Translations under genes and position numbers: made by a program
The notes under the pieces: generated by a model
Databases searched by the model: none
What the model saw: only the letters and a program-made list of their open reading frames with translations
What the model was told of the DNA's origin: nothing
Sequence record: QB023162.1
DNA from: a phage
Reading direction: 5' to 3' (one strand)
DNA length: 40,208 nt
Shown here: in pieces, positions 6,408 through 39,681 of the stretch
How positions within the stretch are numbered: position 1 is the stretch's first letter
Layout of the letters: the number at the start of each line of letters is the position of its first letter

Positions 6408-6671
6408 CTATTCCAGAATATTCCTCACGTAATCCTGCAACATGAACACTTTCAGACGCAGTTTCCGTACACATTCAGCGTTCTGAACGTCGATAGCTAA
6501 ATCCTCGTCCGCGTCGCTACTTGGCGCGGCCAGTTTGCACGGTGGCTGCATCATCATCGTATCCGGGGATGGAATTGGCGTTTGCGACGGCGCGGGACTT
6601 AAGCTGCACGCGCTCAGGGTCAAAAGTGCACACGCTGCGACCAGGCGTTTTAATGTACTTAACGACTTCAC
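6408..6671 (-). CDS. Rz1: o-spanin (Rz1-like outer-membrane lipoprotein), GTG start
   Basis: Signal peptide with lipobox LTLSAC, then a Pro-rich segment (SPAPSQTPIPSP). Starts inside Rz in another frame and extends past its stop. SD CAGAGG before GTG 6671. Confidence 0.7.
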   Translation of the reverse strand: MKSLSTLKRLVAACALLTLSACSLSPAPSQTPIPSPDTMMMQPPCKLAAPSSDADEDLAIDVQNAECVRKLRLKVFMLQDYVRNILE

Positions 6672-6903
6672 GTGTAATTACCTCTGATTTCGTCTTGCCT
6701 TCGTTATCAGCGGCTGCGGCCTTCGACTCATCCTGCTGCTGCCGTTGTGTTTTCTTCGCTAACTCAGCCTGTGCTTTCTGCTGTTGCTGTGAAACGAGAT
6801 TACCCCGACCTTCGTTCCAGCCGCTGCGATACTGGTAGATGCCGTGTGCGTAGGCCAGGACTATGAAACATGCCCCCGCTACGACAGTTGCTTTAAGATT
6901 CAT
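6517..6903 (-). CDS. Rz: i-spanin (Rz-like)
   Basis: N-terminal transmembrane segment followed by a charged, Gln-rich coiled-coil periplasmic domain; SD GAAAGGGG before ATG 6903; overlaps Rz1. Confidence 0.7.
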   Translation of the reverse strand: MNLKATVVAGACFIVLAYAHGIYQYRSGWNEGRGNLVSQQQQKAQAELAKKTQRQQQDESKAAAADNEGKTKSEVITREVVKYIKTPGRSVCTFDPERVQLKSRAVANANSIPGYDDDAATVQTGRAK

Positions 6904-14509: not shown

Positions 14510-14995
14510 TCATTTAACGGCTCTCCCAATAGCCTCAGCCTCTTGCCACGGTTTACCGTCGAACAGCGCCAGACGCCCGGATGTACGGCGACGCAGGCCG
14601 AGTAACGGCTTGCCGTTCTGGTTGATGAACAGCGCCAGCTTGGCACGCAGTGTTGCAATATCTCCTGAGCGCAGGGCCTTGCCCGTGCCAGTAGTAGACG
14701 CAATCACGCCGGCGCCCGCGTTATAGACCAGGTCGCACACTGCATCAAACTGTGCCTGTGTCAGTGAATGGTGTCCTGCGGCATCGACCGCGGCTACTGC
14801 CTTAGCCATATCGCGATTCAGTAACAGCAAGCCCTGTCCAGGGGTGATGGTCTGTCCTGCCTTAACATGTGGGCCGTGGCTTCCGTACCCAATAGTAAGG
14901 TACTTCTCGTTCGGCGTAGCACGATACGCAGTTCCACGGAATCCCTCGAACGCGGCGGTAAAATGCAGTCCATTATCTGAAATGTTTCGAGACAC
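14510..14995 (-). CDS. endolysin, phage lysozyme (GH24-like, resembles P22 gp19)
   Basis: Recalled similarity to P22 gp19 around FEGFRGTAY...TIGYGSHG, QFDAVCDLVYNAG and the Arg-rich LLGLRRR region; GTG start with SD GGAGGA 7 nt upstream; no N-terminal transmembrane segment. Confidence 0.8.
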   Translation of the reverse strand: MSRNISDNGLHFTAAFEGFRGTAYRATPNEKYLTIGYGSHGPHVKAGQTITPGQGLLLLNRDMAKAVAAVDAAGHHSLTQAQFDAVCDLVYNAGAGVIASTTGTGKALRSGDIATLRAKLALFINQNGKPLLGLRRRTSGRLALFDGKPWQEAEAIGRAVK

Positions 14996-15245
14996 GCTTA
15001 TGTCCTCCGTATGACAGCCACGCCTGACGAATCTGGCGCAGCGCGACTAATGTGATTAATGTCCCAGGCAGCGTTGGCGACATGCCACCCTGTAACAGGT
15101 GGATACATCCGGCGGCGCAGACAATAGCGGTCAGGATATAGAGCACCCGACCGAATAGCCCGTCGTCCACGCTGGGATGATACACATTAAACAGCGATGT
15201 ACCCCCGATTGCCAGCATACCGCCGAACCAGAATAACTCATTCAT
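14973..15245 (-). CDS. holin-like / antiholin membrane protein (90 aa)
   Basis: Two to three predicted transmembrane helices; between holin and endolysin with overlaps on both sides; SD GAGGAGG. Confidence 0.45.
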   Translation of the reverse strand: MNELFWFGGMLAIGGTSLFNVYHPSVDDGLFGRVLYILTAIVCAAGCIHLLQGGMSPTLPGTLITLVALRQIRQAWLSYGGHKRVSKHFR

Positions 15246-15546
15246 CCGGGCCTCCTCGACGTGAGATGTATTCTCCGGCGACGATACCGGAGAGGCGGGA
15301 ATAGATGGGCATCCAGAGAATAGCGATAATGAATCCGAGGCCAGCTATCTCACGCTCCCCAGTAATGCCAAACCATTGCGCGGCAAGAGGTGCACCAAAC
15401 ACGGCACAGGTGAAACCAGTTGCAATAAAGCAGAAGCCATCGATAGGGCCAGAAATAACGGACTTATGTTGTCGTAGTCCGATTACCCCACCGGCTAGTG
15501 CGGCAGCCAGAAGCCAGCCTGTCACTGTTTCAGTAAATTTATCCAA
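15238..15546 (-). CDS. putative holin (102 aa, three hydrophobic segments), TTG start
   Basis: Three hydrophobic helices; first gene of the holin-endolysin cassette; SD GGAGGA 6 nt before TTG 15546, with no in-frame ATG nearby. Confidence 0.55.
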   Translation of the reverse strand: MDKFTETVTGWLLAAALAGGVIGLRQHKSVISGPIDGFCFIATGFTCAVFGAPLAAQWFGITGEREIAGLGFIIAILWMPIYSRLSGIVAGEYISRRGGPDE

Positions 15547-18843: not shown

Positions 18844-21084
18844 ATGTCCGATGTAATTTTATCCTACTCGTGGTCACGTCGCAACGCGCGGGCGGAGAAA
18901 AAGGATATAAACGTCAGAACCACACACACGGCAACACTAGACGACCTGAAAGGGTTAATCCAGCCGCTCGATGCCGTTCGTGATGGAATTAACCCGAAGA
19001 CCGCGCCGGGGTATATCACCGCCGCGTGCGACTCTACGCACAGCACTGTAAAAGACCCGGAAACAGGTGACTTTAAGCAAGCGCGTAAAGGCTTTTTCTA
19101 TCGCTGTGACGCGTCTGTAAGCAAATCGTCGCTGGCGTATCTGGACTTCGACAGCGCAACACCGGAGGAGTACCAGGAAGCGGTGCGCCTGGTTAAGCGC
19201 AGCCGCCTGGCGATGTGCCTCTACACTACGGCATCACATACCGACGAGTCCCCTCGCTTTCGCGTCGTTATGCCGCTGGGTTGCCCGGTCGAAGGTGGTG
19301 ACATCATCCGCGTTCGTCATGGATTGCTGGAGCACTTCTTCAAAGGTATGGGCGCTGACCGCAGCGGGTTCACCCTGTCGCAGCCGATGTACCTGCCGCC
19401 GGTTGGCTCTACCGTTATCTGGTCGCGCCGCAACGACCTGATTGACCCGGACGAGTTACTGGAGGGCATCCCCGCCGTTGACGTTAGTTGCGCATCTGAC
19501 TACCAGATACCGGAAGAACTGCGCACCGCGTTTACAGATGCGTTTGAGGCGCTGGCGTTCGAGTACGGCGGTGTCATGACACCGCGCGGCCTTAAGATGC
19601 CGGCTACACCGGAACACGCCGAAAACTACAGCGACCCGACCCCGCGCCCGGACGACTTCCTGTTGTGCTTCCCTCGCGAGGGATATGAAGCGCCTAACGT
19701 AACCATGATCCACGACACCGACATTACGGCAACCGAAGGCATGTCACCGAAGGAGGTGTGGAAGTATGCGTGCGATGCGACTGGGCTGCCGTTCAGTGAA
19801 GTGGCTGAGGCCATAGGTTGGGGTGCGCGTGAATCTGTCTCATGCAGCCTAGACGACCTGGAAGACGATGATGACTCAGAGGAGGGCGAGTTGCCGGAAC
19901 CGGTAAAGGCTGATTTCGTCGTTGAAGGGTACATGCCGTCAGATTGCATATGGGATATTGTCGGGGAATCTGGCACGTACAAATCGTTCTATACGCTTGG
20001 GATGATGTACCTTAGCGCTGCCGGATACCGGTTTGCGGGGGCAGATACCCAACGTTGTCACCATTTCTATATTGATGGCGAAGGTGGTGCCGCTACACGC
20101 ACCCGTATCGACGCACTCGCGGCTAAGTACGGCGAGGAAGGTAAAGATTATGTACATGTCATCGATATGGGCGAAGTCGGAAAACTGAAAAGCCTGATTA
20201 AGTTAATGCGCGAAACTGCGGGCGATGAACCTATTGGCATGGTTGCGTTCGACACCCTTAACCAGACCCTGGCCCTGACGATTGATAAGTTTGACGAGAA
20301 CAGCTCATCAACGACAATCGGTATGGGTAAAGTTATCGCCATCCTGAAAGAAGTGCGTGACGCGACTAAAGCCGCGGTAGGCGTCGTCCACCATACCCCG
20401 AAGGGGGGAAAGAAAGCCCGTGGCAGCGGGGCACTGTATGCAGGTGTCGACGTGGAACTGACGATTGAACGTGCAACCGACCGTCAAATAAACGTATACC
20501 ACTCTAAATTCAAGCACGGGCCGCAGCAGAAGACGGTTGGCATGGTTCTTGAGTCAGTACAGTTCCGTGAAGCGCCGCCGCCGAAAGAGTACCGTGCGGT
20601 TGAGTTCCTGGGTAGCACAGAAGAATACGGCACAATCGTAAACCTGGACCTTCCTGAGCCACACAAGGCGCTTGTGTTGATGCCGTGGGGCTTCGAGCCG
20701 TTCAAGACTGACGAGGAGAAAGAGCGAGAAGAAGGGCTGACAAAGGAAGGTAAAGAAAACGTAAAGAATGCTGTAAAACGCGGGAAGGATGAAGGGCGTA
20801 AGGAATCAATACTTGCAGCACTGGAAGACCTGCAACAGTCCGACGACACAGGCCGCGGTTTTACCCAACGGCAGATAGTAGCGAACTCGGGCGACCACGC
20901 CATCACCAACCACCATCTCGAGAAGATGCTGAAAGACGGGGAGTTGATGCTCGGGTGCGATGTTAACGGTGAAGTTATGCCAGGCACATACCGGATACCG
21001 GAAAAGATGGGTGACAGATTAAGGCCGAAGACAATATACGAACCAAATGAAATGCTGGTGGTTACAGAGGAGGATTTGGAATAG
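18844..21084 (+). CDS. putative replicative primase/helicase (P-loop NTPase in C-terminal half)
   Basis: 746 aa; Walker A-like GESGTYKS and Walker B-like MVAFD in the central/C-terminal region; SD GAAGGA; primase assignment of the N-terminal half is by analogy only. Confidence 0.55.
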   Translation: MSDVILSYSWSRRNARAEKKDINVRTTHTATLDDLKGLIQPLDAVRDGINPKTAPGYITAACDSTHSTVKDPETGDFKQARKGFFYRCDASVSKSSLAYLDFDSATPEEYQEAVRLVKRSRLAMCLYTTASHTDESPRFRVVMPLGCPVEGGDIIRVRHGLLEHFFKGMGADRSGFTLSQPMYLPPVGSTVIWSRRNDLIDPDELLEGIPAVDVSCASDYQIPEELRTAFTDAFEALAFEYGGVMTPRGLKMPATPEHAENYSDPTPRPDDFLLCFPREGYEAPNVTMIHDTDITATEGMSPKEVWKYACDATGLPFSEVAEAIGWGARESVSCSLDDLEDDDDSEEGELPEPVKADFVVEGYMPSDCIWDIVGESGTYKSFYTLGMMYLSAAGYRFAGADTQRCHHFYIDGEGGAATRTRIDALAAKYGEEGKDYVHVIDMGEVGKLKSLIKLMRETAGDEPIGMVAFDTLNQTLALTIDKFDENSSSTTIGMGKVIAILKEVRDATKAAVGVVHHTPKGGKKARGSGALYAGVDVELTIERATDRQINVYHSKFKHGPQQKTVGMVLESVQFREAPPPKEYRAVEFLGSTEEYGTIVNLDLPEPHKALVLMPWGFEPFKTDEEKEREEGLTKEGKENVKNAVKRGKDEGRKESILAALEDLQQSDDTGRGFTQRQIVANSGDHAITNHHLEKMLKDGELMLGCDVNGEVMPGTYRIPEKMGDRLRPKTIYEPNEMLVVTEEDLE

Positions 21085-23721: not shown

Positions 23722-23750
23722 TTGACACCTGAATAGTTAGCTATTATAGT
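23722..23750 (+). promoter_or_regulatory. class B promoter PB2 with operator O7
   Basis: TTGACA (23722..23727), 17 nt containing TGAATAG-TTAG-CTATTAT (23730..23747), TATAGT (23745..23750). Confidence 0.65.
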
Positions 23751-24490: not shown

Positions 24491-26662
24491 ATGAGTTACC
24501 TGTTCTTGGACTTTGAAACATTCTCCGAGGCCGATTTAAAGAAAGTCGGCTCCTATGCTTACGCTGAACACCCGACTACCGAAGTGCTTATCTGTACCTA
24601 TGCTTTTGACGACGAGCCTGTACAGGTATGGGATTGCACCGACGGCAGCGACATGCCAGGGGATTTGCACCGCGCCTTGCGCCGCCTGGTTAAGCTGAAC
24701 AGCCGCATTAAGATGGTGTGGCACAACGGTGGACTTTTCGATCGTCTCATCATGAAACACTGCTGGGGCTTTGATATTCCGGTAAGCAACACCATTGATA
24801 CGATGATTTGGGCGTTTCGTCACGCGCTGCCGGGTTCACTCGATGCATTGTGCGAAGTGCTGGGAGTATCCGCCGACAATGCGAAAGATAAACGCGGGAA
24901 GGCGCTGATTCAGCGTTTCTCTAAGCCGACGCCAAAGAACTATAAAATTCGCCGCTACACTGCCGAAACGCACCAGGACGAGTGGGCGATGTTCATCAAG
25001 TACGCCGTGAGCGACATCACCGCGATGCGTGAAGTCTTCCATAAGCTGCCGCGTTGGGGTAACTCAGACTTCGAGGACCGTGTACTGGAGCTGGACCAGT
25101 TAATCAATGACCGCGGGTTTAAGGTTGACGTCGCACTGGCGGAAGCCGCGATTGAAGCCGTGGAGAAACACAAAGCGCAGTTACAGGAAGAAGCCCAACG
25201 TAAATACGGCGGCTCGCTTACCGGAAAGGACTTTCTGCCAATTCTGCGTGAACTCGCACCAGCGCACCGCATCCACAACGCGCAGAAGTCAACGCTTAAC
25301 GACCTGCTGGCTGACGATGATTTACCAGACGACGCGCGCACTATTATCGAAATGCGCCTCGGGGCCGCGTCCACCGCGTCAACGAAATATAACCCGCTGC
25401 TGTTGGGTCGCTCGTCTGACGACCGCCGTCGCGGTTGCATCCAGTATGGCGGGGCAAAGCGTACGCTACGGTTTGCTGGCAAAGGCTTCCAGCCGCAGAA
25501 CCTGGCACGCGGGTACTATCACGATGATGAACTGGATAAAGGGATTTCTGCGTTACTTAAGGGCCGCGCGCATCGCCGTTTCGATGTAGCCAAACTAACG
25601 GCATCGACGGTTCGTAGTTGCATCATACCGGAAGCTGGGCATAAGTTTGTTGTTGCCGATTACTCTAACGTTGAAGGCCGGGGGCTTGCGTGGCTGGCCG
25701 GGGAAGACGATTTAATCGAAGTATTTGTAAACGGGGTTGATGTGTACAAGAAACTCGCATCAACGGTGTTTAACGTGGCGTATGAAGCCGTAACAAAGGA
25801 CCAAAGACAAATAGCCAAAGCAATGGTTCTGGGACTCGGCTACGCGGGGGGTGTCGGTGCTTTCATCACTTTTGCTAAAAACTTAGGTCTTGATTTGAAC
25901 GATATGACCTGCACTTTAGACGGGACTTTCCCGGACCATATCTGGGCTGCTACTGCACGTGGATATGAGTGGGCCCGCATTCAGGAGGCCAAGAGACCGC
26001 CGCGTCCTGGTGAAAAGGATGACCGACCATCATATATTCTGGACAAGAAAGTGTGGCGAACCTGCGACGCTTTAAAACGCATGTATCGAGAAGCTAATCC
26101 CGCAATAGTCCAATTCTGGCGAGATATTGAAGACTCAGCTATGGCGGCTATCCGCAATCCAGGTAAAGAGTTCACTGCAGGGCCGCGCGGCGTTAAGTTT
26201 TCGCGTAACGTGGAGACCGACAACAACGGCAACAAAGTCGCCGGTTGGTGGTTGCGGATGACGTTGCCGTCGGGCCGCGTTATGTCTTATCCGGGTGTTG
26301 GGTTAAGCGTGTCGAAAGAGACAGACGAAGACGGGAAGGTGTCTACCAACGTGCGCATCAAGTACCAGGGCGAAAACCAGTTAACCCGCCAGTGGGGTTT
26401 CCAGTACACATATTCCGGTAAACTAGTGGAAAACTGCACACAGGCGCTGTGCCGTGATTTGCTGGCTAATGCGCTGCTGAACGTAGAGGCAAACGGCTAC
26501 CCGATTGTACTTCACGTACACGATGAGATTATCTGCGAGACACCAGATTTACCGGAATACAATGTCGCAGAACTGGAACGATTGATGTGCGAATTACCTG
26601 AATGGGCGGAGGGGTTCCCTCTTGTAGCAGAAGGTGCGGAGATGAAGCGTTATGCCAAGTAA
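24491..26662 (+). CDS. DNA polymerase, family A (Pol I-like) with N-terminal 3'-5' exonuclease domain
   Basis: Exo motif LFLDFETFS; PolA motif A DYSNVEGRGLAW, motif B RQIAKAMVLGLGYAGG, motif C VHDEI; 723 aa. Confidence 0.85.
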   Translation: MSYLFLDFETFSEADLKKVGSYAYAEHPTTEVLICTYAFDDEPVQVWDCTDGSDMPGDLHRALRRLVKLNSRIKMVWHNGGLFDRLIMKHCWGFDIPVSNTIDTMIWAFRHALPGSLDALCEVLGVSADNAKDKRGKALIQRFSKPTPKNYKIRRYTAETHQDEWAMFIKYAVSDITAMREVFHKLPRWGNSDFEDRVLELDQLINDRGFKVDVALAEAAIEAVEKHKAQLQEEAQRKYGGSLTGKDFLPILRELAPAHRIHNAQKSTLNDLLADDDLPDDARTIIEMRLGAASTASTKYNPLLLGRSSDDRRRGCIQYGGAKRTLRFAGKGFQPQNLARGYYHDDELDKGISALLKGRAHRRFDVAKLTASTVRSCIIPEAGHKFVVADYSNVEGRGLAWLAGEDDLIEVFVNGVDVYKKLASTVFNVAYEAVTKDQRQIAKAMVLGLGYAGGVGAFITFAKNLGLDLNDMTCTLDGTFPDHIWAATARGYEWARIQEAKRPPRPGEKDDRPSYILDKKVWRTCDALKRMYREANPAIVQFWRDIEDSAMAAIRNPGKEFTAGPRGVKFSRNVETDNNGNKVAGWWLRMTLPSGRVMSYPGVGLSVSKETDEDGKVSTNVRIKYQGENQLTRQWGFQYTYSGKLVENCTQALCRDLLANALLNVEANGYPIVLHVHDEIICETPDLPEYNVAELERLMCELPEWAEGFPLVAEGAEMKRYAK

Positions 26663-26783
26663 ACTGATTATCGCGGTACTGGCGGGATTCGCCGCCGGTG
26701 TCTACTGTCACGAGGGCCAATACGGCATGATGGTTGCTATATTGGGTATGTTCATCGCAATTTATCTGTGGGTGCTGGAATGA
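26652..26783 (+). CDS. unlisted 43-aa single-pass membrane mini-protein
   Basis: ATG 26652 overlaps the polymerase 3' end; hydrophobic helices LIIAVLAGFAAGV and MMVAILGMFIAIYLWVL; ATGA coupled to the next ORF. Confidence 0.35.
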   Translation: MPSKLIIAVLAGFAAGVYCHEGQYGMMVAILGMFIAIYLWVLE

Positions 26784-26869
26784 AAATTTACCGGTTCTAC
26801 GAAGAAGACTGTCGAATCTGTCCGCGCTGCGGGATTGAGCATACGAAACGTGAGGGGTGCGTGTTATGA
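26780..26869 (+). CDS. unlisted 29-aa zinc-ribbon-like mini-protein
   Basis: Translation MKIYRFYEEDCRICPRCGIEHTKREGCVL has C-x2-C-x2-C plus a fourth Cys; ATGA overlaps at both ends. Confidence 0.3.
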   Translation: MKIYRFYEEDCRICPRCGIEHTKREGCVL

Positions 26870-27018
26870 CAATGTTTGTATTTTGGACGATAGTAACCAT
26901 GCTCGCACTGCTACTCGGTGCGGGGATAGCTGCGATGTTCTGTTATGGTCTGTTCTTTAAGTTTGTTGGCGCTGCTGTTCTAGGCGGGGCTTTCCTTACC
27001 TGGATTCTGCGGCCATGA
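26866..27018 (+). CDS. unlisted 50-aa two-helix membrane mini-protein
   Basis: Two hydrophobic segments (FVFWTIVTMLALLLGAGIAAMF and FVGAAVLGGAFLTWIL); ATGA coupled to the VRR-NUC gene. Confidence 0.35.
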   Translation: MTMFVFWTIVTMLALLLGAGIAAMFCYGLFFKFVGAAVLGGAFLTWILRP

Positions 27019-27299
27019 CCCCGGAAGGCAAGATTCAGAAATACGCAAAAGAGAGATTCGAGGCCCTGGGCGGCCTCGTTCGAAAGCTGTCTTATGAGGG
27101 GCGTTCCGGCGCTCCTGACCTGCTGGTGATTCTCCCCGGCGGCATCGTATGGTTCGTCGAGGTGAAGAAAGACGAAAACACGAAGCCAGACCCGCACCAG
27201 TTACGGGAGCACGAGCGGATGAGCAAACGTGGTGCTAATGTTTTTGTCGTTGGTTCGTTCAAACAGGTTGACACCCTAATAGCGAGCTATTATAGTTAA
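27015..27299 (+). CDS. VRR-NUC domain nuclease
   Basis: 94 aa with GAPDLLVILPGGIVWFVEVKK, i.e. a PD...(E)VK PD-(D/E)XK core typical of VRR-NUC. Confidence 0.7.
   Translation: MTPEGKIQKYAKERFEALGGLVRKLSYEGRSGAPDLLVILPGGIVWFVEVKKDENTKPDPHQLREHERMSKRGANVFVVGSFKQVDTLIASYYS
27268..27296 (+). promoter_or_regulatory. class B promoter PB3 with operator O8, embedded in the 3' end of the VRR-NUC gene
   Basis: TTGACA (27268..27273), 17 nt containing CTAATAG-CGAG-CTATTAT (27276..27293), TATAGT (27291..27296). Confidence 0.65.
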
Positions 27300-27329: not shown

Positions 27330-27521
27330 ATGAAACACGAATACGACCGCAAACCAGCACGTGACATCGTACCTGGCGACATGATTTTCAACGTTAAGAC
27401 TCGCCAGCCTGTTGCCGTTGATACGGTGTTCGTGGAGTCGAACGGTAAACTGGTTATCGAAGACGTAACAGGTAACGTTACGGCGTTCGGGCGTAAAGAG
27501 CTGGTGCTGGTGGCAAAATGA
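27330..27521 (+). CDS. hypothetical protein (63 aa)
   Basis: ORF table; SD AAGGAA; ATGA coupled to the helicase gene. Confidence 0.45.
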   Translation: MKHEYDRKPARDIVPGDMIFNVKTRQPVAVDTVFVESNGKLVIEDVTGNVTAFGRKELVLVAK

Positions 27522-28942
27522 GTAAGTTTCAAAGGCGCGAGTACCAGAAGCTCATGACTTCGTTCATGCTACAGCATCATCGCTGTAATATTTGGGCGAG
27601 CATGGGTGCCGGGAAGACTGGCAGCGTACTGTGGGCGTTAAACAGACTGTTCCGCAACGGCCAACTTAATGATGATGACCGCGTGTTAATCCTCGCGCCG
27701 TTGCGTGTTGCGTCCGGCACATGGCCGGCAGAACAAGAGAAATGGCAATTCCCATGTCTGCGTGTCGTTGATGCAACCGGTTCAGAGAAGCGCCGCATCG
27801 CGGCGCTGGAGTCTGATGCTAACGTGGTTTGCACGAACTACGAAGTTATCGAGTGGCTGATTGACTACTACGGCAAAGACGACTGGCCTTTTACCGTTAT
27901 CGTTGCCGATGAAAGCACGAAGCTGAAATCATTCCGCAGCCGTTCTGGTGGAAGCAAGCGGGCGAAGGCGCTTAGTAAAGTGGCGTTCGGTAAGGTTAAG
28001 CGTTTCATTAACCTTACCGGTACACCGTCACCGAACGGCCTTAAGGACTTGTGGGGTCAGAACTGGTTTATCGACGCTGGAGAGCGCCTCGGTTCTTCAT
28101 ACACAGCATTCACAGACCGCTGGTTTAACTCGGTACAGAAGGGCAAATCGGCGATGGCACGTGAATACCACGCCCGCCCTGGCGCAGATAATGAGATTCA
28201 TCAGAAGATGAAAGACATTAGTCTCACGATTGACGCGGCCGAGTGGTTTGGTTGTGAAGCGCCGATTATTGTACCGGTTGAAATCGACCTACCGAAGAAG
28301 GCGCGTCAGGCGTACATCGATATGGAGGAGAAGCTATTCGCAGAACTGGAGAGCGGGGAAGTGGAAGCGGCTAACGCTGCGGCGAAGACGTCGAAGTGCC
28401 TACAGATTGCATCCGGTGCCGTGTATGTATCGGGGCCAGACGGAGAAGCAACCAAAGACTGGGAGAAAGTTCACGACACGAAACTGGATGCGCTTGAGTC
28501 GATTGTTGAGGAGTTACAGGGCGCTCCGTTATTGGTGGCCTATCAGTTTAAGCACGAACTGGAGCGCATCCTTAAGCGATTCCCGCAGGCGCAGGCGTTT
28601 GCCAAAGGTGCGAAGGGTAATAAGCAGATGGAAGCGTGGAACCGCGGGGAAATCGAAATCTTATGCGTACATCCTGCGTCAGCCGGTCATGGTTTGAATT
28701 TACAGGACGGCGGGCATCATCTGGCATTCATCTCGCAAGGCTGGAACCTTGAGCACTATTTGCAGGTTGTCGAGCGTATAGGCCCGGTCCGCCAGAAACA
28801 GGCAGGGCACGAGCGACCAGTGTTCCTCTATCACATCGTTGCTAAAGACACGCTGGACGAGGTTGTTGCCGCGCGTACAGACGAGAAGAAATCGGTGCAG
28901 GAAGAATTGCTTAATTACATGAAGAGACGAGGTAAGAAATGA
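27518..28942 (+). CDS. SNF2/DEAD-like superfamily 2 helicase
   Basis: Walker A GAGKTGS, DExx-like VIVADEST, C-terminal helicase domain; typical partner of VRR-NUC in phage genomes. Confidence 0.7.
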   Translation: MSKFQRREYQKLMTSFMLQHHRCNIWASMGAGKTGSVLWALNRLFRNGQLNDDDRVLILAPLRVASGTWPAEQEKWQFPCLRVVDATGSEKRRIAALESDANVVCTNYEVIEWLIDYYGKDDWPFTVIVADESTKLKSFRSRSGGSKRAKALSKVAFGKVKRFINLTGTPSPNGLKDLWGQNWFIDAGERLGSSYTAFTDRWFNSVQKGKSAMAREYHARPGADNEIHQKMKDISLTIDAAEWFGCEAPIIVPVEIDLPKKARQAYIDMEEKLFAELESGEVEAANAAAKTSKCLQIASGAVYVSGPDGEATKDWEKVHDTKLDALESIVEELQGAPLLVAYQFKHELERILKRFPQAQAFAKGAKGNKQMEAWNRGEIEILCVHPASAGHGLNLQDGGHHLAFISQGWNLEHYLQVVERIGPVRQKQAGHERPVFLYHIVAKDTLDEVVAARTDEKKSVQEELLNYMKRRGKK

Positions 28943-29076
28943 ACATCATAGCCCCGATTCCGGCATTGCAAAAACGTATCAAGGAACTCGAAGAGGAGGT
29001 TCTGCGACTACGGCAACAGAGAGATGCCGCTAATGCGCAACTGGCGTTTGTACTGGAGAAGCTATCAGAAGAGTAG
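28939..29076 (+). CDS. unlisted 45-aa coiled-coil mini-protein
   Basis: ATGA coupled to the helicase stop; translation MNIIAPIPALQKRIKELEEEVLRLRQQRDAANAQLAFVLEKLSEE. Confidence 0.3.
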   Translation: MNIIAPIPALQKRIKELEEEVLRLRQQRDAANAQLAFVLEKLSEE

Positions 29077-29080
29077 AGAA

Positions 29081-29106
29081 AAGGCCCCGTTTGGGGCCTT
29101 ATTTTT
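29081..29106. terminator. bidirectional terminator between the replication module and the tailspike gene
   Basis: AAGGCCCC-gttt-GGGGCCTT followed by ATTTTT; a U-rich tract is also present for the minus strand. Confidence 0.6.
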
Positions 29107-29112
29107 AATTAA

Positions 29113-31257
29113 CTAAAAACCCGCACCTAAAGTACCAGCTACTGACCACCTACCCGGTGTTCCAGGGGTGACACAGTACCACAAATATGGGGTAGACTCG
29201 ACAGCATCCAGATTAAGCACCATATCACCACGTTTCCAAGCTCCACTACCATCAGGTCTTCCTGCGGCTGGCTTACCTGTTCCAAGCCAATTACCATTAT
29301 ACTGTTGATCCCCGTTTTGCGTGAATGACAGAACCTTTGGTTTAGCTCCTGAGTATCGCATCACTGATTTACATGACACCTCGCCAGTGATATAGCAGTC
29401 TGAAACAAACAGCCAAGCACGGTCTCCGCAGTTAACATCCCCCAGTATCGAGGAGCTAGTCAGATGAATTTCAGTGAATGTCGGTGCAAATAGCGCAGTA
29501 ATCCCGATGTTCCTCAACGAAGAGTTGGATATTCTCAGCTCTTTCGGTGCACCATCATCACTACCAAAATCAATAACGGAACCTGGCGCATCCGACGATA
29601 AGGTACACTGATTAAAGGTCAATGAGGCATTCCACGCACCCCACGCGCCTCCTGCATGAGATATAAGGCAACCATCAAATTCTACCAGCCCTGTACTCTC
29701 CGTTCCTGTTACGAAAATCGGCTCTGAACTGGATGTTTTATACACATTGCATTTTATAAATTTAGCTTTAGCACCAGAGTTCTTCATAAACCTCTTATCT
29801 GTTTTGAAAGTACAGTTTATAAAAGTTGAGGTTTCAAGGACATTCCAAACGGCAACAGCACATTGCAGCAGGTTGTGGGTATTAGAACCGGAGTTATACT
29901 CAAACACGCTATTCATTACAGTAACTACGCCACACAACTCTGTGTGTATCGGTCGGTCATATCCGTAAACATACGCATTATTAATGCTAATATTCCTGGG
30001 GTCTGGCTTGCCTGTCGGGCTATACCCATCAACAACTATGCCACATCTACCACCACGTGAATTATTCCCGGACTCAACACGAATGTTATCAATGGATACG
30101 TTAGTGCTCCCATACCATACAATCAACCCATCACCCCAATTCTCTAGCTGTGAGCTAGTAAATCCTTTATCAGACAAAGGAGAGCAATCTTTCAGGGTTA
30201 TTTGATTAATACACCCATTCTGGCAATTAGATACATTAATTCCTTGCCGTTGCGCTTTCTCAACATAGACATTCTCCAGAGAGAAATTAGTAGTGTTGCG
30301 CAGGTTTATACCGATTGCGTAATCGTTCGCTTTGATGCTTATGTTCTTTAAATGGACATTAGCGAGAGAACCAGATGTTCCACCGGCAAAATTCGGGGTG
30401 TTTATAGCCGCCATTTCGCTGCCGTTTGTTACATCTGAAAGGGTGAAAACCGGCCCCATCCAGTTGAGTGTAGAATCTCTAAAATCTATATTTGTGTTGG
30501 AAGATAAAACCCAATCGCTAGATATGTTAATTATAGATTTTTCTGGAAAATACAAATCTACAAACGGTGCCGATGCCATAGCATCAAGAACAGGCTTAGC
30601 ATCAGCCATGTTGTTTTCGAAGCCAAAGTTGTTTGCGCTTCTAACATCATTACCGTTTAAAAGACCAATATTGCGCCAGAGAACGTCAGATGTAGGGGCT
30701 GGGTCAATATTCTTAGGGAAATTTCCGGTCCAGACATACCAATACCCGTCGCTGGCCTGAACAGCTTCTCTGAATTCATTTACAACACCCCCCGTTGTAA
30801 ATGAGTATTTCTTAAGAAAATTCACGAAATACCCATCTGAAATTAAATTAACACCAAGCGGTGCTTCCAGTTCCTGCCTGAGATTTGGGTCCGTCTGCGG
30901 TTCCCAATCCGCGCCCCCTACTGGGTTAAAGGACGCTGGAACAACAACCGGCAACGTACCCGCGTACGAGTACCATGTTTTACTTACAGGGTCGTAGACA
31001 ACTTTATTGCGGTCGTTAACCGCTAACGTGCCCCCAGTGGAAAAGTCCCATGACACCGGAGAAAATCCAGCATCGCGCAACACGGCAGGGAGTGTCTTCT
31101 GCGTCTGCCCTGTAACCTGATTTGTTGCGTAATCGATATCAGCGCCCCCCGCAACCCCACCGGATTTACCAGTGATAACCTCGGCCTCGAAAATCTGGTG
31201 TTTCTTGGCGGTTTGTAAGTCCGCCAGGCTTAAAACGTCACCGCATCCGCTTGACAT
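29113..31257 (-). CDS. tailspike / receptor-binding depolymerase with predicted right-handed beta-helix
   Basis: 714 aa; last gene of the tail module; Asn/Gly/Ser/Thr-rich periodic segments typical of pectate-lyase-like beta-helices; SD AGAGGA. Confidence 0.6.
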   Translation of the reverse strand: MSSGCGDVLSLADLQTAKKHQIFEAEVITGKSGGVAGGADIDYATNQVTGQTQKTLPAVLRDAGFSPVSWDFSTGGTLAVNDRNKVVYDPVSKTWYSYAGTLPVVVPASFNPVGGADWEPQTDPNLRQELEAPLGVNLISDGYFVNFLKKYSFTTGGVVNEFREAVQASDGYWYVWTGNFPKNIDPAPTSDVLWRNIGLLNGNDVRSANNFGFENNMADAKPVLDAMASAPFVDLYFPEKSIINISSDWVLSSNTNIDFRDSTLNWMGPVFTLSDVTNGSEMAAINTPNFAGGTSGSLANVHLKNISIKANDYAIGINLRNTTNFSLENVYVEKAQRQGINVSNCQNGCINQITLKDCSPLSDKGFTSSQLENWGDGLIVWYGSTNVSIDNIRVESGNNSRGGRCGIVVDGYSPTGKPDPRNISINNAYVYGYDRPIHTELCGVVTVMNSVFEYNSGSNTHNLLQCAVAVWNVLETSTFINCTFKTDKRFMKNSGAKAKFIKCNVYKTSSSEPIFVTGTESTGLVEFDGCLISHAGGAWGAWNASLTFNQCTLSSDAPGSVIDFGSDDGAPKELRISNSSLRNIGITALFAPTFTEIHLTSSSILGDVNCGDRAWLFVSDCYITGEVSCKSVMRYSGAKPKVLSFTQNGDQQYNGNWLGTGKPAAGRPDGSGAWKRGDMVLNLDAVESTPYLWYCVTPGTPGRWSVAGTLGAGF

Positions 31258-39354: not shown

Positions 39355-39681
39355 ATGCGTAAATTAGTATTAGCTCTGGGGTTTATGTCTTTTGCCGCTT
39401 TTGGGTCCCCGTGCGAACAGGTATTTAGTGAATCTGTTCTTATGACTTCTGGTGTGCTCGATAAAGCCGACCCTACTATTGTAAAGGCATTTAAGGACTC
39501 TACCGTTCGCGAGTGTGAGGCTGCCGTAGGGGTTGGTAAATCGGGCCTGCCTCCGCAAGCCGTAACATACTCTGTAATACGTTCGGTAGAGAAAAACGGA
39601 GACGCGTTTTACAGCCTACTGACAGCCACCCGCCTGCAAATGGTTATGACCGGGTGGGCGATAGGTGCGGAAAGTAAATAG
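39355..39681 (+). CDS. small secreted/periplasmic protein (108 aa) with signal peptide
   Basis: N-terminus MRKLVLALGFMSFAAFG is a typical Sec signal; SD GAGGAA; first gene of the plus-strand island. Confidence 0.5.
   Translation: MRKLVLALGFMSFAAFGSPCEQVFSESVLMTSGVLDKADPTIVKAFKDSTVRECEAAVGVGKSGLPPQAVTYSVIRSVEKNGDAFYSLLTATRLQMVMTGWAIGAESK

What the first reader, a model, noticed from the sequence alone, without database searches (positions are those of the whole stretch)
26652..27018. Three translationally coupled mini-genes between DNA polymerase and VRR-NUC
Three consecutive ORFs of 43, 29 and 50 aa are each linked by ATGA overlaps, at 26652..26783, 26780..26869 and 26866..27018. The first and third are hydrophobic membrane peptides; the middle one has four Cys in a zinc-ribbon-like arrangement. 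None reaches the 60-aa table cutoff. Membrane mini-proteins inside a replication operon are candidates for superinfection exclusion, membrane anchoring of replication, or inhibition of host membrane sensors.
Basis: partly seen in the sequence, partly recalled or inferred. Interest (0 to 1): 0.45.

Follow-up and report, generated by a model that had tools for sequence, protein, structure and literature searches.

The report
Three coupled phage micro-genes, function unknown
Between the DNA polymerase and nuclease genes of this E. coli phage lie three real, tiny, overlapping genes (two membrane peptides and one cysteine-rich 29-residue peptide); close relatives already list them as hypothetical proteins and their function is still unknown.

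Summary
ORFs of 43, 29 and 50 aa lie exactly at 26652-26783, 26780-26869 and 26866-27018. They are chained by ATGA overlaps, by an 11-nt overlap with polA and by a third ATGA into VRR-NUC.

The window is a Kagunavirus (Guernseyvirinae). All three ORFs are under purifying selection in the called frame only (dN/dS 0.20, 0.13, 0.19), so they are genes.

They are not new. Relatives annotate them as hypothetical proteins, and they match PHROGs 10404, 38225 and 14925, all of unknown function.

They are not one unit:
- The Cys-rich peptide mg2 is encoded in about 446 GenBank Guernseyvirinae records.
- The membrane peptide mg1 is in 224 records. It was lost by an in-frame deletion that keeps mg2 translated.
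- The membrane peptide mg3 is in 121 records, and other small genes replace it at the same site.

mg2 is not a canonical zinc ribbon. Its motif is C-x2-C-x2-C-x3-H-x5-C, and at least four of these five candidate metal ligands are always kept.

Function is untested. My best guess is that mg2 is a cytoplasmic metal-knuckle micro-protein of the replication/recombination operon, and that mg1 and mg3 are dispensable inner-membrane accessory micro-proteins. Interest is modest.

The parts
23722..23750 (+). Sigma-70-like promoter (TTGACA-17-TATAGT, 11 of 12 matches). Likely start of the transcription unit DUF2815-polA-mg1-mg2-mg3-VRR-NUC.
   Evidence: Consensus scan only. The total number of promoter-like sites does not exceed the shuffled expectation, so this is an inference.
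24491..26662 (+). Family A DNA polymerase gene (723 aa). Its last 11 nt overlap the start of mg1.
   Evidence: ORF list; annotated as DNA polymerase in relatives.
26638..26641 (+). GGAG Shine-Dalgarno motif for mg1, inside the polA coding sequence, 10 nt before the ATG.
   Evidence: Anti-SD duplex energy -6.6 kcal/mol against a background mean of -2.1. A GGAG or GAGG lies upstream of mg1 in 53 of the 55 copies listed, including the copies that follow a homing-endonuclease insertion.
26652..26783 (+). mg1: 43-aa, two-helix hydrophobic micro-protein (PHROG 10404). It has a conserved G12xxxG16 and a conserved polar turn, Y18-C-H-E-G-Q-Y24.
   Evidence: Present in 224 GenBank phage records. It forms a single 50%-identity cluster among 1.84 billion representative proteins.
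26780..26869 (+). mg2: 29-aa Cys/His peptide (PHROG 38225) with candidate ligands C11, C14, C17, H21 and C27. Its weak own SD and ATGA overlap point to translation by termination-reinitiation after mg1.
   Evidence: Encoded in about 446 GenBank Guernseyvirinae records (444 with at least 80% coverage) and in 65 of 65 close loci.
26852..26857 (+). GAGGGG Shine-Dalgarno motif for mg3, formed by mg2 codons E25-G26, 8 nt before the mg3 ATG. In relatives that lack mg3, the same motif lies upstream of the VRR-NUC start.
   Evidence: Anti-SD energy -8.5 kcal/mol; junction table.
26866..27018 (+). mg3: 50-aa, very hydrophobic micro-protein (PHROG 14925). It is an accessory cassette.
   Evidence: Present in 121 GenBank phage records. 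In relatives, other small genes replace or accompany it at the same site.
27015..27299 (+). VRR-NUC nuclease gene (94 aa). Its start overlaps the mg3 stop (ATGA) and it has no usable SD of its own, so its translation is inferred to depend on mg3.
   Evidence: PHROG 93/5702; the Pfam VRR_NUC match is below threshold. Anti-SD energy is -3.1 kcal/mol, about background.
27268..27296 (+). Second sigma-70-like promoter (11 of 12 matches), inside the 3' end of VRR-NUC. It marks the next transcription unit.
   Evidence: The equivalent site is annotated as a promoter in phages Jersey, AG11 and fBC-Eco01.

Best explanation
The three ORFs are genuine, lineage-restricted micro-genes of the middle (replication) operon of Guernseyvirinae phages.

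Shown:
- They sit in a chain of overlapping stop/start codons: polA, 11-nt overlap, mg1, ATGA, mg2, ATGA, mg3, ATGA, VRR-NUC.
- Each evolves under purifying selection at the amino-acid level.
- They are three independent cassettes. mg2 is encoded in virtually every member of the subfamily. mg1 and mg3 are dispensable and patchily distributed.

Inferred (translation): ribosomes reach mg1 and mg3 through Shine-Dalgarno motifs embedded in the preceding gene. They reach mg2 and VRR-NUC mainly by termination-reinitiation. The micro-genes would therefore also act as a relay that ties nuclease output to polymerase translation.

Inferred (function), low confidence, about 0.3 each:
- mg2 is a cytoplasmic, metal-stabilised Cys/His knuckle peptide. 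It acts with the replication/recombination proteins it is co-translated with, by binding nucleic acid or a protein partner.
- mg1 and mg3 are inner-membrane helical micro-proteins. They modulate a host inner-membrane target as accessory, host-dependent fitness factors (exclusion, anti-defence or host takeover). They are not parts of the replisome.
For: Coding:
- dN/dS is 0.20, 0.13 and 0.19 in the called frame and at least 0.85 in the other frames. The flanking polA C-terminus (0.10) and VRR-NUC (0.14) are similar.
- Fisher tests counting each variant once give p = 1.7e-9, 3.4e-11 and 7e-8 in the called frame only.
- In mg2 the Cys, His, Gly, Thr and Arg codons vary synonymously (TGT/TGC, CAT/CAC, four codons each for G18, T22 and R24) while the residue stays fixed.

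Coupling:
- The mg1/mg2 overlap is ATGA or GTGA in 55 of 55 copies.
- The mg3 start sits in ATGA or GTGA in 31 of 31 copies.
- Anti-SD energies are -6.6 (mg1), -3.7 (mg2), -8.5 (mg3) and -3.1 kcal/mol (VRR-NUC), against a background of -2.1 +/- 2.5.

mg2 is core:
- It is found in 65 of 65 close loci and in about 446 GenBank phage records, all Guernseyvirinae; the other roughly 19 hits are noise at E >= 2.
- A natural 116-nt deletion removes the mg1 helices but fuses the mg1 start to mg2 in frame.
- At least four of the five candidate ligands are kept in 65 of 65 copies.

mg1 and mg3 are accessory:
- mg1 is in 224 GenBank records and mg3 in 121.
- There are 14 local architectures among 65 loci. 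The site after mg2 alternatively holds a 64-aa gene, a 25-aa hydrophobic peptide, or an HNH gene or its remnant.
- mg1 is found in 103 Escherichia-named records, the same number that carry mg2, but in only 106 of 324 Salmonella-named records.

Membrane character: GRAVY is 1.35 and 1.69 with negative summed insertion free energies. AlphaFold2 models mg1 as two helices, and the best, non-significant structural superpositions are transmembrane hairpins.

Operon context: promoter-like sites at 23722 and 27268 and a terminator-like site at 29081.
Against: - There is no direct evidence of translation, metal binding, membrane insertion or any phenotype.
- The AlphaFold2 model of mg2 was uninformative (pLDDT 58).
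- Sister-clade phages with about 70% identical polA C-termini and about 50% identical VRR-NUC have no mg2. Some have only an 82-nt gap there. PolA and VRR-NUC therefore do not generally need such a peptide.
- The GAGGGG inside mg2 doubles as a ribosome-binding site, so part of mg2's conservation could be at the RNA level.
- The window already has a separate lysis cassette, and the close relative fKuEco01 has a separate Imm-type superinfection gene. This reduces the need for mg1 and mg3 in those roles.
- The GenBank counts are inflated by many near-identical Salmonella Enteritidis phage isolates, so the host correlation of mg1 may simply reflect phylogeny.
Confidence: 0.6

Rival explanations
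1. Chance ORFs in a non-coding spacer, or a structured or regulatory RNA, between polA and VRR-NUC.
For: The ORFs are very short. RefSeq records of K1G and K1ind phages leave the stretch unannotated.
Against: Frame-specific purifying selection is seen in all three ORFs. No copy among 150 has a premature stop. Synonymous diversity is as high as in VRR-NUC for mg2 (pS 0.39 against 0.41). Folding energy is no better than shuffles (z = +0.32). There is no Rfam match and there are no repeats.
Confidence: 0.02
2. Pure translational relay: only the act of translating the ORFs matters, because it delivers ribosomes to VRR-NUC. The peptides themselves have no function.
For: mg2 and VRR-NUC have background-level SD strength and ATGA overlaps. 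The SD for the downstream gene lies inside mg2.
Against: A relay needs only an open frame, not a sequence. Yet amino-acid sequence is conserved (dN/dS 0.13-0.20) with free synonymous change, including at every Cys and His codon. Architectures without mg1 or mg3 place VRR-NUC directly behind mg2's SD, so the relay works without them.
Confidence: 0.07
3. One reading: mg1 and/or mg3 are superinfection-exclusion proteins or inhibitors of host membrane-bound defence sensors.
For: They are small hydrophobic hairpin-type peptides. Their distribution is patchy and cassette-like, as is typical of accessory host-interaction genes. The window lacks the Imm_superinfect gene that the close relative fKuEco01 carries.
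Against: There is no similarity to Imm or to any PHROG, Pfam, NCBIfam or PADLOC family of known function. No experiment exists. Expression from a replication operon of a virulent phage is not diagnostic.
Confidence: 0.2
4. Membrane anchoring of replication: mg1 and mg3 tether the replisome to the inner membrane, with mg2 as adaptor, as p1 and p16.7 do in phage phi29 (that comparison rests on my own knowledge).
For: The genes sit inside the replication operon and are co-translated with polA. Some distant PolA/VRR-NUC modules encode single small proteins that combine a Cys-rich segment with a transmembrane helix at the same position (L084, L092, L078).
Against: mg1 and mg3 are absent from half or more of viable isolates, whereas mg2 is always kept. 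The natural deletion removes the membrane part and keeps mg2. mg1 and mg3 are far smaller than p16.7 and have no soluble domain.
Confidence: 0.08
5. Holin-, antiholin- or other lysis-related small membrane proteins.
For: Two-helix hydrophobic peptides resemble class II holins in general outline.
Against: A complete lysis cassette (two holin-like genes, endolysin) lies elsewhere in the window at 14513-15546 on the other strand, and the spanin gene at 6520-6903. mg1 and mg3 lack the charged C-terminal tail of holins and are not next to an endolysin.
Confidence: 0.03
6. mg2 is a C-terminal extension of PolA made by stop-codon read-through. mg2 is in the polA frame, and in the window that frame is open from the polA TAA through to the mg2 stop.
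For: Frame analysis of the window. The frame is open from the polA stop in 43 of 50 relatives.
Against: Seven of 50 relatives have stops in the linker. In the fused variants mg2 is out of frame with polA, and endonuclease insertions separate the two genes. The linker evolves as non-coding in that frame (dN/dS about 2). TAA is an efficient stop codon (my own knowledge).
Confidence: 0.01

Closest known systems
Orthologous 'hypothetical protein' genes of Guernseyvirinae phages, for example fKuEco01 KE1_038/037/036 and Bas70_0041/0040/0039, and PHROG families 10404, 38225 and 14925
   Same: Same genes at the same position. mg1 is 100% identical to the fKuEco01 and K1G copies, mg2 is 100% identical to the Bas70 copy, and mg3 is 96% identical to the UTI-CM001 copy. 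PHROG E-values are 4.5e-32, 4.1e-20 and 8.6e-33.
   Different: Nothing of substance differs. All are of unknown function. mg2 is often left unannotated: in 13 of 40 sampled records no feature lies under it. The 29-aa form is almost absent from the protein collection searched.
Small bacterial and phage inner-membrane micro-proteins that modulate larger membrane proteins, such as AcrZ, MgrB, KdpF and Pf4 PfsE (PfsE is cited in PMC11323111; the others are from my own knowledge)
   Same: Size of 30-50 aa, one or two hydrophobic helices, no soluble domain. mg1 has a conserved GxxxG-type packing motif (G12 and G16).
   Different: There is no sequence or family relationship. No target is known, and topology and membrane insertion are untested.
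Small superinfection-exclusion membrane proteins (T4 Imm / Pfam Imm_superinfect, HK97 gp15; from my own knowledge)
   Same: Small phage-encoded transmembrane proteins made before lysis, non-essential and patchily distributed.
   Different: Neither mg1 nor mg3 matches Imm_superinfect. The relative fKuEco01 carries a separate Imm-type gene elsewhere in its genome.
CCHC zinc knuckle (C-x2-C-x4-H-x4-C), RanBP2-type zinc finger, and the C-x3-H-x5-C-x2-C motif of T4 gp32 (the last from my own knowledge)
   Same: A short Cys/His cluster flanked by aromatic and basic residues. C14-x2-C17-x3-H21-x5-C27 spans the same total length as a CCHC knuckle. The best, non-significant PDB sequence match is the RBM10 RanBP2 finger (E = 0.83).
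   Different: The spacing is x3/x5, not x4/x4. There is no Pfam zf-CCHC, zf-RanBP or zinc-ribbon hit. A fifth candidate ligand, C11, is present in 58 of 65 copies. mg2 is a free-standing 29-aa protein, not a domain.
Phage phi29 membrane proteins p1 and p16.7, which organise membrane-associated replication (from my own knowledge)
   Same: Small membrane proteins encoded among early/replication genes.
   Different: Those proteins have soluble DNA- or protein-binding domains and belong to a protein-primed replication system. mg1 and mg3 are almost entirely hydrophobic and are dispensable in nature.

Membership tests
PHROG 10404 (mg1), 38225 (mg2), 14925 (mg3) | Significant full-length match to the family profile | tested here: met
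   E = 4.5e-32 (positions 1-43 of 43), 4.1e-20 (5-32 of 36) and 8.6e-33 (1-49 of 50).
Zinc ribbon | Two CxxC (or CxxH) knuckles separated by a beta-hairpin-forming spacer | tested here: not met
   The sequence has C11-x2-C14-x2-C17, then H21 and a single C27, with no second CxxC pair. No zinc-ribbon Pfam hit at E <= 10.
Zinc ribbon | Three-stranded ribbon fold around the metal | tested here: inconclusive
   AlphaFold2 model has pLDDT 57.9 and no secondary structure assigned.
CCHC zinc knuckle (Pfam zf-CCHC) | C-x2-C-x4-H-x4-C spacing and a profile match | tested here: not met
   The spacing is C-x2-C-x3-H-x5-C. There is no zf-CCHC hit.
Metal-binding Cys/His peptide (generic) | At least four invariant candidate ligands under amino-acid-level selection | tested here: met
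   The residues at positions 11, 14, 17, 21 and 27 read CCCHC in 55 copies, RCCHC in 6, and FCCHC, CCYHC, CCCQC and CCCYC in 1 each. No copy has fewer than four. Cys and His codons vary synonymously.
Metal-binding Cys/His peptide (generic) | Stoichiometric Zn(II) binding | not testable with these tools
   Needs a synthetic peptide with Co(II)/Zn(II) titration or ICP-MS.
Holin (class II / pinholin) | Gene located in the lysis cassette next to the endolysin | tested here: not met
   The lysis cassette lies at 14513-15546 on the other strand. mg1 and mg3 lie between polA and VRR-NUC.
Holin (class II / pinholin) | Two transmembrane domains followed by a charged cytoplasmic C-terminal tail | tested here: not met
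   mg1 ends ...WVLE and mg3 ends ...WILRP, so there is no charged tail.
Imm-type superinfection immunity protein (Pfam Imm_superinfect) | Profile match to the family | tested here: not met
   No hit for mg1 or mg3 at E <= 10. The annotated Imm-type gene of fKuEco01 is a different gene, KE1_020.
Translationally coupled operon genes | Overlapping stop/start codons conserved across relatives | tested here: met
   ATGA or GTGA in 55 of 55 copies (mg1/mg2) and 31 of 31 (mg3 start).
Translationally coupled operon genes | Downstream translation depends on upstream translation | not testable with these tools
   Only inferred, from background-level SD energies of mg2 (-3.7) and VRR-NUC (-3.1 kcal/mol). 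Needs reporter fusions with upstream nonsense mutations.
Integral membrane micro-protein | Hydrophobic segments long enough to span a bilayer | tested here: met
   GRAVY is 1.35 and 1.69. Summed Hessa-scale free energies are negative for 15-19-residue windows in mg1 and 15-21-residue windows in mg3. AlphaFold2 gives mg1 helices 2-20 and 22-42.
Integral membrane micro-protein | Experimental membrane localisation and topology | not testable with these tools
   Needs fractionation and PhoA/GFP fusions.

The most novel reading that the evidence does not exclude
mg2 is an essential 29-residue metallopeptide subunit or cofactor of the Guernseyvirinae replication/recombination machinery. It would be one of the smallest universally conserved phage core genes, and annotation misses it systematically because it sits at the 90-nt gene-calling limit. 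mg1, mg3 and the other cassettes at that site would be interchangeable membrane or soluble partners that adapt its activity or location to the host. The Cys-rich-plus-transmembrane single proteins at the same position in distant PolA/VRR-NUC modules (L078, L084, L092) would then be fused analogues of the mg1+mg2 pair.
Probability: 0.15. Interest if true: 0.55.

Novelty: already known. Interest (0 to 1): 0.27.

Why it matters
As found, this is ordinary. Small hypothetical genes are common in phage genomes, and these three are already deposited and clustered in PHROGs.

Two points have some value.
- mg2 shows that a 29-codon gene can be as conserved as the neighbouring enzymes across about 446 phage genomes. 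It is still unannotated in about a third of sampled records and nearly absent from the protein collection searched. That is a concrete case for lowering length cut-offs in phage annotation.
- The site after mg2 is a natural swap site for micro-genes and homing endonucleases. Isolates with and without mg1 and mg3 already exist, so their function could be tested without engineering. Many of these phages (K1-specific coliphages, Salmonella Enteritidis phages) are therapy or biocontrol candidates, so knowing what their membrane micro-proteins do to the host has some practical relevance.

Tried and rejected
- **PolA read-through into mg2.** Same frame, open in the window. Rejected because 7 of 50 relatives have stops, the fused forms are out of frame, and the linker evolves as non-coding.
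- **mg1 and mg3 as paralogues.** Profile-profile comparison gives probability 0.4%.
- **RNA element.** Folding z-score is +0.32, there is no Rfam hit and there are no repeats.
- **Known protein families.** Pfam gave nothing above threshold. The sub-threshold hits to EMC6 and PufX look compositional, which is my judgement. NCBIfam and PADLOC gave nothing.
- **PDB sequence search of mg2.** The best hit has E = 0.83.
- **AlphaFold2 on mg2.** Uninformative, pLDDT 58.
- **Foldseek of the mg1 model against the PDB.** No hit below E = 5; the best superpositions are generic transmembrane hairpins.
- **Remote homologues.**
  - Word-indexed searches for mg1 and mg3 found only relatives of at least 73% identity, in contigs of up to about 46 kb.
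  - An exhaustive profile search with mg1 against 1.84 billion representatives found one cluster, its fragments and three spurious repetitive proteins.
An artificial concatenation of two mg2 variants found only 11 proteins, all fused or frameshifted forms.
- **Literature.** Searches on Guernseyvirinae/Kagunavirus returned genome descriptions only, judged from titles and abstracts. None appeared to address these genes. A review of phage small proteins, searched for five terms, offered only general analogies.
- **Positional analogues in distant modules.** Several small Cys-rich or Cys-plus-transmembrane ORFs lie next to VRR-NUC. None has an annotated PHROG, and there is no baseline for how often such ORFs occur by chance, so I keep this only as a lead.


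Full report
**1. What is in the sequence**

- mg1: 26652-26783, 43 aa.
- mg2: 26780-26869, 29 aa.
- mg3: 26866-27018, 50 aa.

ATGA stop/start overlaps lie at 26780-26783, 26866-26869 and 27015-27018. The last one joins mg3 to the VRR-NUC gene (27015-27299). The chain also extends upstream: the mg1 ATG at 26652 lies inside the last codons of polA (24491-26662, stop TAA at 26660-26662).

A consensus scan places strong sigma-70-like promoters at 23722-23750 and 27268-27296, and a terminator-like hairpin at 29081-29100. The micro-genes therefore appear to belong to a unit DUF2815-polA-mg1-mg2-mg3-VRR-NUC. This is an inference from consensus matches. The second site is annotated as a promoter in phages Jersey, AG11 and fBC-Eco01.

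**2. Where the window comes from**

The region is 90-93% identical to Escherichia phages of the genus Kagunavirus, subfamily Guernseyvirinae (fKuEco01, K1G, K1H, Bas70). It matches 445-447 phage records in all, almost all of them Salmonella or Escherichia phages.

Several of these records already annotate all three ORFs as hypothetical proteins:
- fKuEco01 KE1_038/037/036.
- Bas70_0041/0040/0039.
- SE124_1FR, TU03 and Bas73.

Others annotate none (K1G RefSeq) or only some (Jersey, E19, EM1).

All three match PHROG families of unknown function: 10404, 38225 and 14925, with E = 4.5e-32, 4.1e-20 and 8.6e-33. As sequence features they are therefore already known.

**3. Are they genes?**

I assembled 94 related loci: 15 GenBank regions and 79 IMG/VR contigs retrieved with the VRR-NUC protein, so the sampling did not depend on the micro-genes.

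- *Stops.* Among ungapped copies (54 of mg1, 65 of mg2, 31 of mg3) none has a premature stop, apart from one mg3 copy whose stop lies one codon early.
- *dN/dS.* Pooled Nei-Gojobori dN/dS is 0.20, 0.13 and 0.19 in the called frames, against 0.85-2.2 in the other two frames of the same DNA. The flanking polA C-terminus (0.10) and VRR-NUC (0.14) are similar. Third-position diversity is 2-4 times that of positions 1 and 2.
- *Variant counts.* To avoid weighting by phylogeny, I counted each observed variant once. Synonymous changes are enriched only in the called frame: odds ratios 4.8, 9.9 and 3.8, with p = 1.7e-9, 3.4e-11 and 7e-8. The other frames are not significant.
- *Codon detail in mg2.* The Cys codons alternate TGT/TGC and His21 alternates CAT/CAC. 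G18, T22 and R24 each use four codons while the residue never changes.
- *RNA alternatives.* The region folds no better than shuffled sequence (z = +0.32). It has no Rfam match and no repeats.

The non-coding explanation is refuted.

**4. Translation signals**

mg1 has a GGAG motif 10 nt upstream, inside polA (anti-SD duplex -6.6 kcal/mol). mg3 has GAGGGG 8 nt upstream, formed by mg2 codons E25-G26 (-8.5 kcal/mol). mg2 (-3.7) and VRR-NUC (-3.1) are near the background of -2.1 +/- 2.5.

Across relatives:
- The mg1/mg2 overlap is ATGA or GTGA in 55 of 55 copies.
- The mg3 start sits in ATGA or GTGA in 31 of 31 copies.
- Where a homing endonuclease gene separates polA from mg1, the new upstream sequence again carries GAGG or GGAG.
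- Where mg3 is absent, the VRR-NUC ATG sits behind the same GAGGGG of mg2.

I infer that mg2 and VRR-NUC are translated mainly by termination-reinitiation. The chain would then also work as a relay that ties nuclease output to polymerase translation. This step is inferred, not shown.

**5. The three genes are independent cassettes**

Searching 50,697 GenBank phage records by tblastn:
- mg2 is encoded in about 446 records, all Guernseyvirinae. The roughly 19 remaining hits have E >= 2.
- mg1 is in 224 records: 103 Escherichia-named, the same number that carry mg2, but only 106 of 324 Salmonella-named.
- mg3 is in 121 records.

Among 65 close loci there are 14 local architectures:
- mg1-mg2-mg3 in 20, plus 3 more with an endonuclease insertion upstream.
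- mg1-mg2 in 13.
- Forms with an unrelated 64-aa gene (PHROG 25645), with or without mg3, in 12.
- Forms with an HNH gene or its remnant.
- Two loci with a different 25-aa hydrophobic peptide at the mg3 site.

Nine loci, including the isolates AG11 and Ent2, carry a 116-nt deletion between short direct repeats. It removes both helices of mg1 and fuses mg1 codons 1-7 in frame to mg2 codon 3. mg2 thus keeps a start codon and an SD. This is a single event, but it fits selection to keep mg2 translated while mg1 is dispensable.

Outside the subfamily the genes have no detectable relatives.
- Word-indexed searches gave only hits of at least 73% identity, in contigs of up to about 46 kb.
- An exhaustive profile search with mg1 against 1.84 billion representatives found one cluster, its fragments and three spurious repetitive proteins.
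- The 29-aa form of mg2 is almost absent from the protein collection searched. Only the 36-aa fused form and frameshift artefacts were found.

Sister-clade contigs with about 70% identical polA C-termini lack all three genes. Some have only 82 nt between polA and VRR-NUC.

**6. What the peptides look like**

*mg1.* It has two hydrophobic stretches around a conserved polar turn, Y18-C-H-E-G-Q-Y24, and a conserved G12xxxG16. AlphaFold2 gives helices 2-20 and 22-42 at pLDDT 80. The best structural superpositions, none significant, are transmembrane hairpins.

*mg3.* It is hydrophobic almost throughout (GRAVY 1.69) with only K32 and R49 charged. Its topology cannot be decided from sequence. mg1 and mg3 are not detectably related.

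*mg2.* It is hydrophilic (six basic and five acidic residues) with an aromatic N-terminus and the motif C11-x2-C14-x2-C17-x3-H21-x5-C27.
- Across 65 copies these five positions read CCCHC in 55, RCCHC in 6, and FCCHC, CCYHC, CCCQC and CCCYC in 1 each. At least four candidate ligands always remain. This pattern suggests one tetrahedral metal site with a spare ligand.
- It is neither a canonical zinc ribbon nor a canonical CCHC knuckle, and Pfam finds neither.
- The closest PDB sequence match is a RanBP2-type finger at E = 0.83.
- The AlphaFold2 model was uninformative.

**7. Function**

Nothing tested here assigns a function.
- Lysis is covered elsewhere in the window: holin-like genes at 14976-15546, endolysin at 14513-14995 and spanin at 6520-6903, all on the other strand.
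- The relative fKuEco01 has a separate Imm-type gene.
- No defence-related, NCBIfam or Pfam family matches.
- The literature retrieved consisted of genome descriptions. Judged from titles and abstracts, none addresses these genes.

My working model, at low confidence, has two parts.
- mg2 is the universally kept member and is co-translated with PolA and VRR-NUC. I take it to be a metal-stabilised knuckle micro-protein acting in the cytoplasm on nucleic acid or on one of the replication/recombination proteins.
- mg1 and mg3 are dispensable, host-correlated and swapped with unrelated micro-genes at one site. I take them to be accessory inner-membrane modulators of a host target (exclusion, anti-defence or takeover), not replisome parts.

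Two facts count against an obligatory replisome role for mg2. The sister clade lacks it. Part of its conservation could also serve the embedded SD, although synonymous diversity in mg2 is as high as in VRR-NUC.

One lead is worth recording. In distant PolA/VRR-NUC modules, small ORFs next to VRR-NUC are often Cys-rich:
- L078 has a canonical CX2CX4HX4C knuckle followed by a hydrophobic tail.
- L084 and L092 have a Cys-rich segment plus a transmembrane helix.
- L073 has a 51-aa CxxC protein.
- L066, L068 and L069 have zinc-ribbon ORFs just downstream.

I have no baseline for how often such ORFs occur by chance, and none has an annotated family.

**8. Verdict**

The genes are already annotated in relatives and remain of unknown function. 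Interest is modest. The most useful points are that mg2 is a core 29-codon gene that annotation often misses, and that natural isolates differing in mg1 and mg3 are already available for experiments.

Noticed in passing
L007 1067-1261; L013 1767-1961; L010 1067-1258; L065 1927-2001; L008 1764-1886: The site immediately after mg2 is a cassette swap site. Relatives carry mg3, an unrelated 64-aa Cys-containing gene (PHROG 25645), both together, a 25-aa hydrophobic peptide (MTMLTFIMVIVAVFLGVAVLCKVTD), or an HNH endonuclease gene or its 40-aa remnant.
   Followed up: partly
L011 879-1377; L012 516-1211; L013 1958-2455: Free-standing homing endonuclease genes (HNH-like, endonuclease VII-like) are inserted at the polA/mg1 boundary or before VRR-NUC in some relatives. 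AG11 and Ent2 also carry inteins in polA and in the helicase.
   Followed up: partly
L009 851-961; L015 1553-1663; L025 about 1754-1852: A 116-nt deletion between short direct repeats (ACTTATTAT / ACTATTTATTAT) fuses mg1 codons 1-7 in frame to mg2 codon 3. The result is the 36-aa ORF on which the PHROG 38225 profile is built.
   Followed up: yes
window 26660-26869: mg2 is in the same reading frame as polA, and in the window no stop separates the polA TAA from the mg2 stop. Seven of 50 relatives have stops there, so the read-through idea was rejected.
   Followed up: yes
window 27330-27521 and 27518-28942: The window lacks the DNA cytosine methyltransferase gene that lies between the 63-aa PHROG 4879 gene and the SNF2-type helicase in K1G, fKuEco01 and Bas70. 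Here the 63-aa gene overlaps the helicase start directly.
   Followed up: partly
window 39355-39681: A 108-aa ORF with a hydrophobic, signal-like N-terminus sits next to the homologue of fKuEco01 KE1_021, where fKuEco01 has its Imm_superinfect gene. That Imm gene has no match in the window, and the 108-aa ORF has no Pfam hit.
   Followed up: partly
window 29113-31257 (- strand): The 714-aa tailspike has a Tail_spike_N domain and a sub-threshold beta-helix match (24.2 bits against a cut-off of 25.9). It resembles the fKuEco01 endosialidase only over about 170 N-terminal residues (58% identity). This suggests a different receptor specificity from the K1-capsule phages.
   Followed up: partly
window 19918-21081: The primase-helicase region is only 31% identical in protein to that of fKuEco01, although flanking replication genes are over 90% identical. 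This points to a module replacement.
   Followed up: no
L078 1831-1980; L084 1515-1760; L092 1793-2002; L073 1837-1992; L066 1012-1224; L069 2312-2494: Distant PolA/VRR-NUC modules carry other small Cys-rich ORFs next to VRR-NUC. They include a canonical CX2CX4HX4C knuckle with a hydrophobic tail, Cys-rich-plus-transmembrane proteins, and 60-70-aa CxxC...CxxC proteins just downstream. None has an annotated PHROG.
   Followed up: partly
proteins P0069, P0071-P0075, P0178, P0079, P0142, P0138: Metagenome assemblies contain rare frameshifted fusions, either the 5' part of mg1 joined to mg2 or mg2 joined to mg3. They have one to three member sequences each and may be sequencing errors or natural frameshift mutants.
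   Followed up: partly
window 28939-29076: A 45-aa coiled-coil-like ORF overlaps the helicase stop and is followed by the terminator-like hairpin at 29081-29100. Its Pfam matches (DUF1192, ZapB-like) are all below threshold. It is annotated as a hypothetical protein in fKuEco01.
   Followed up: no
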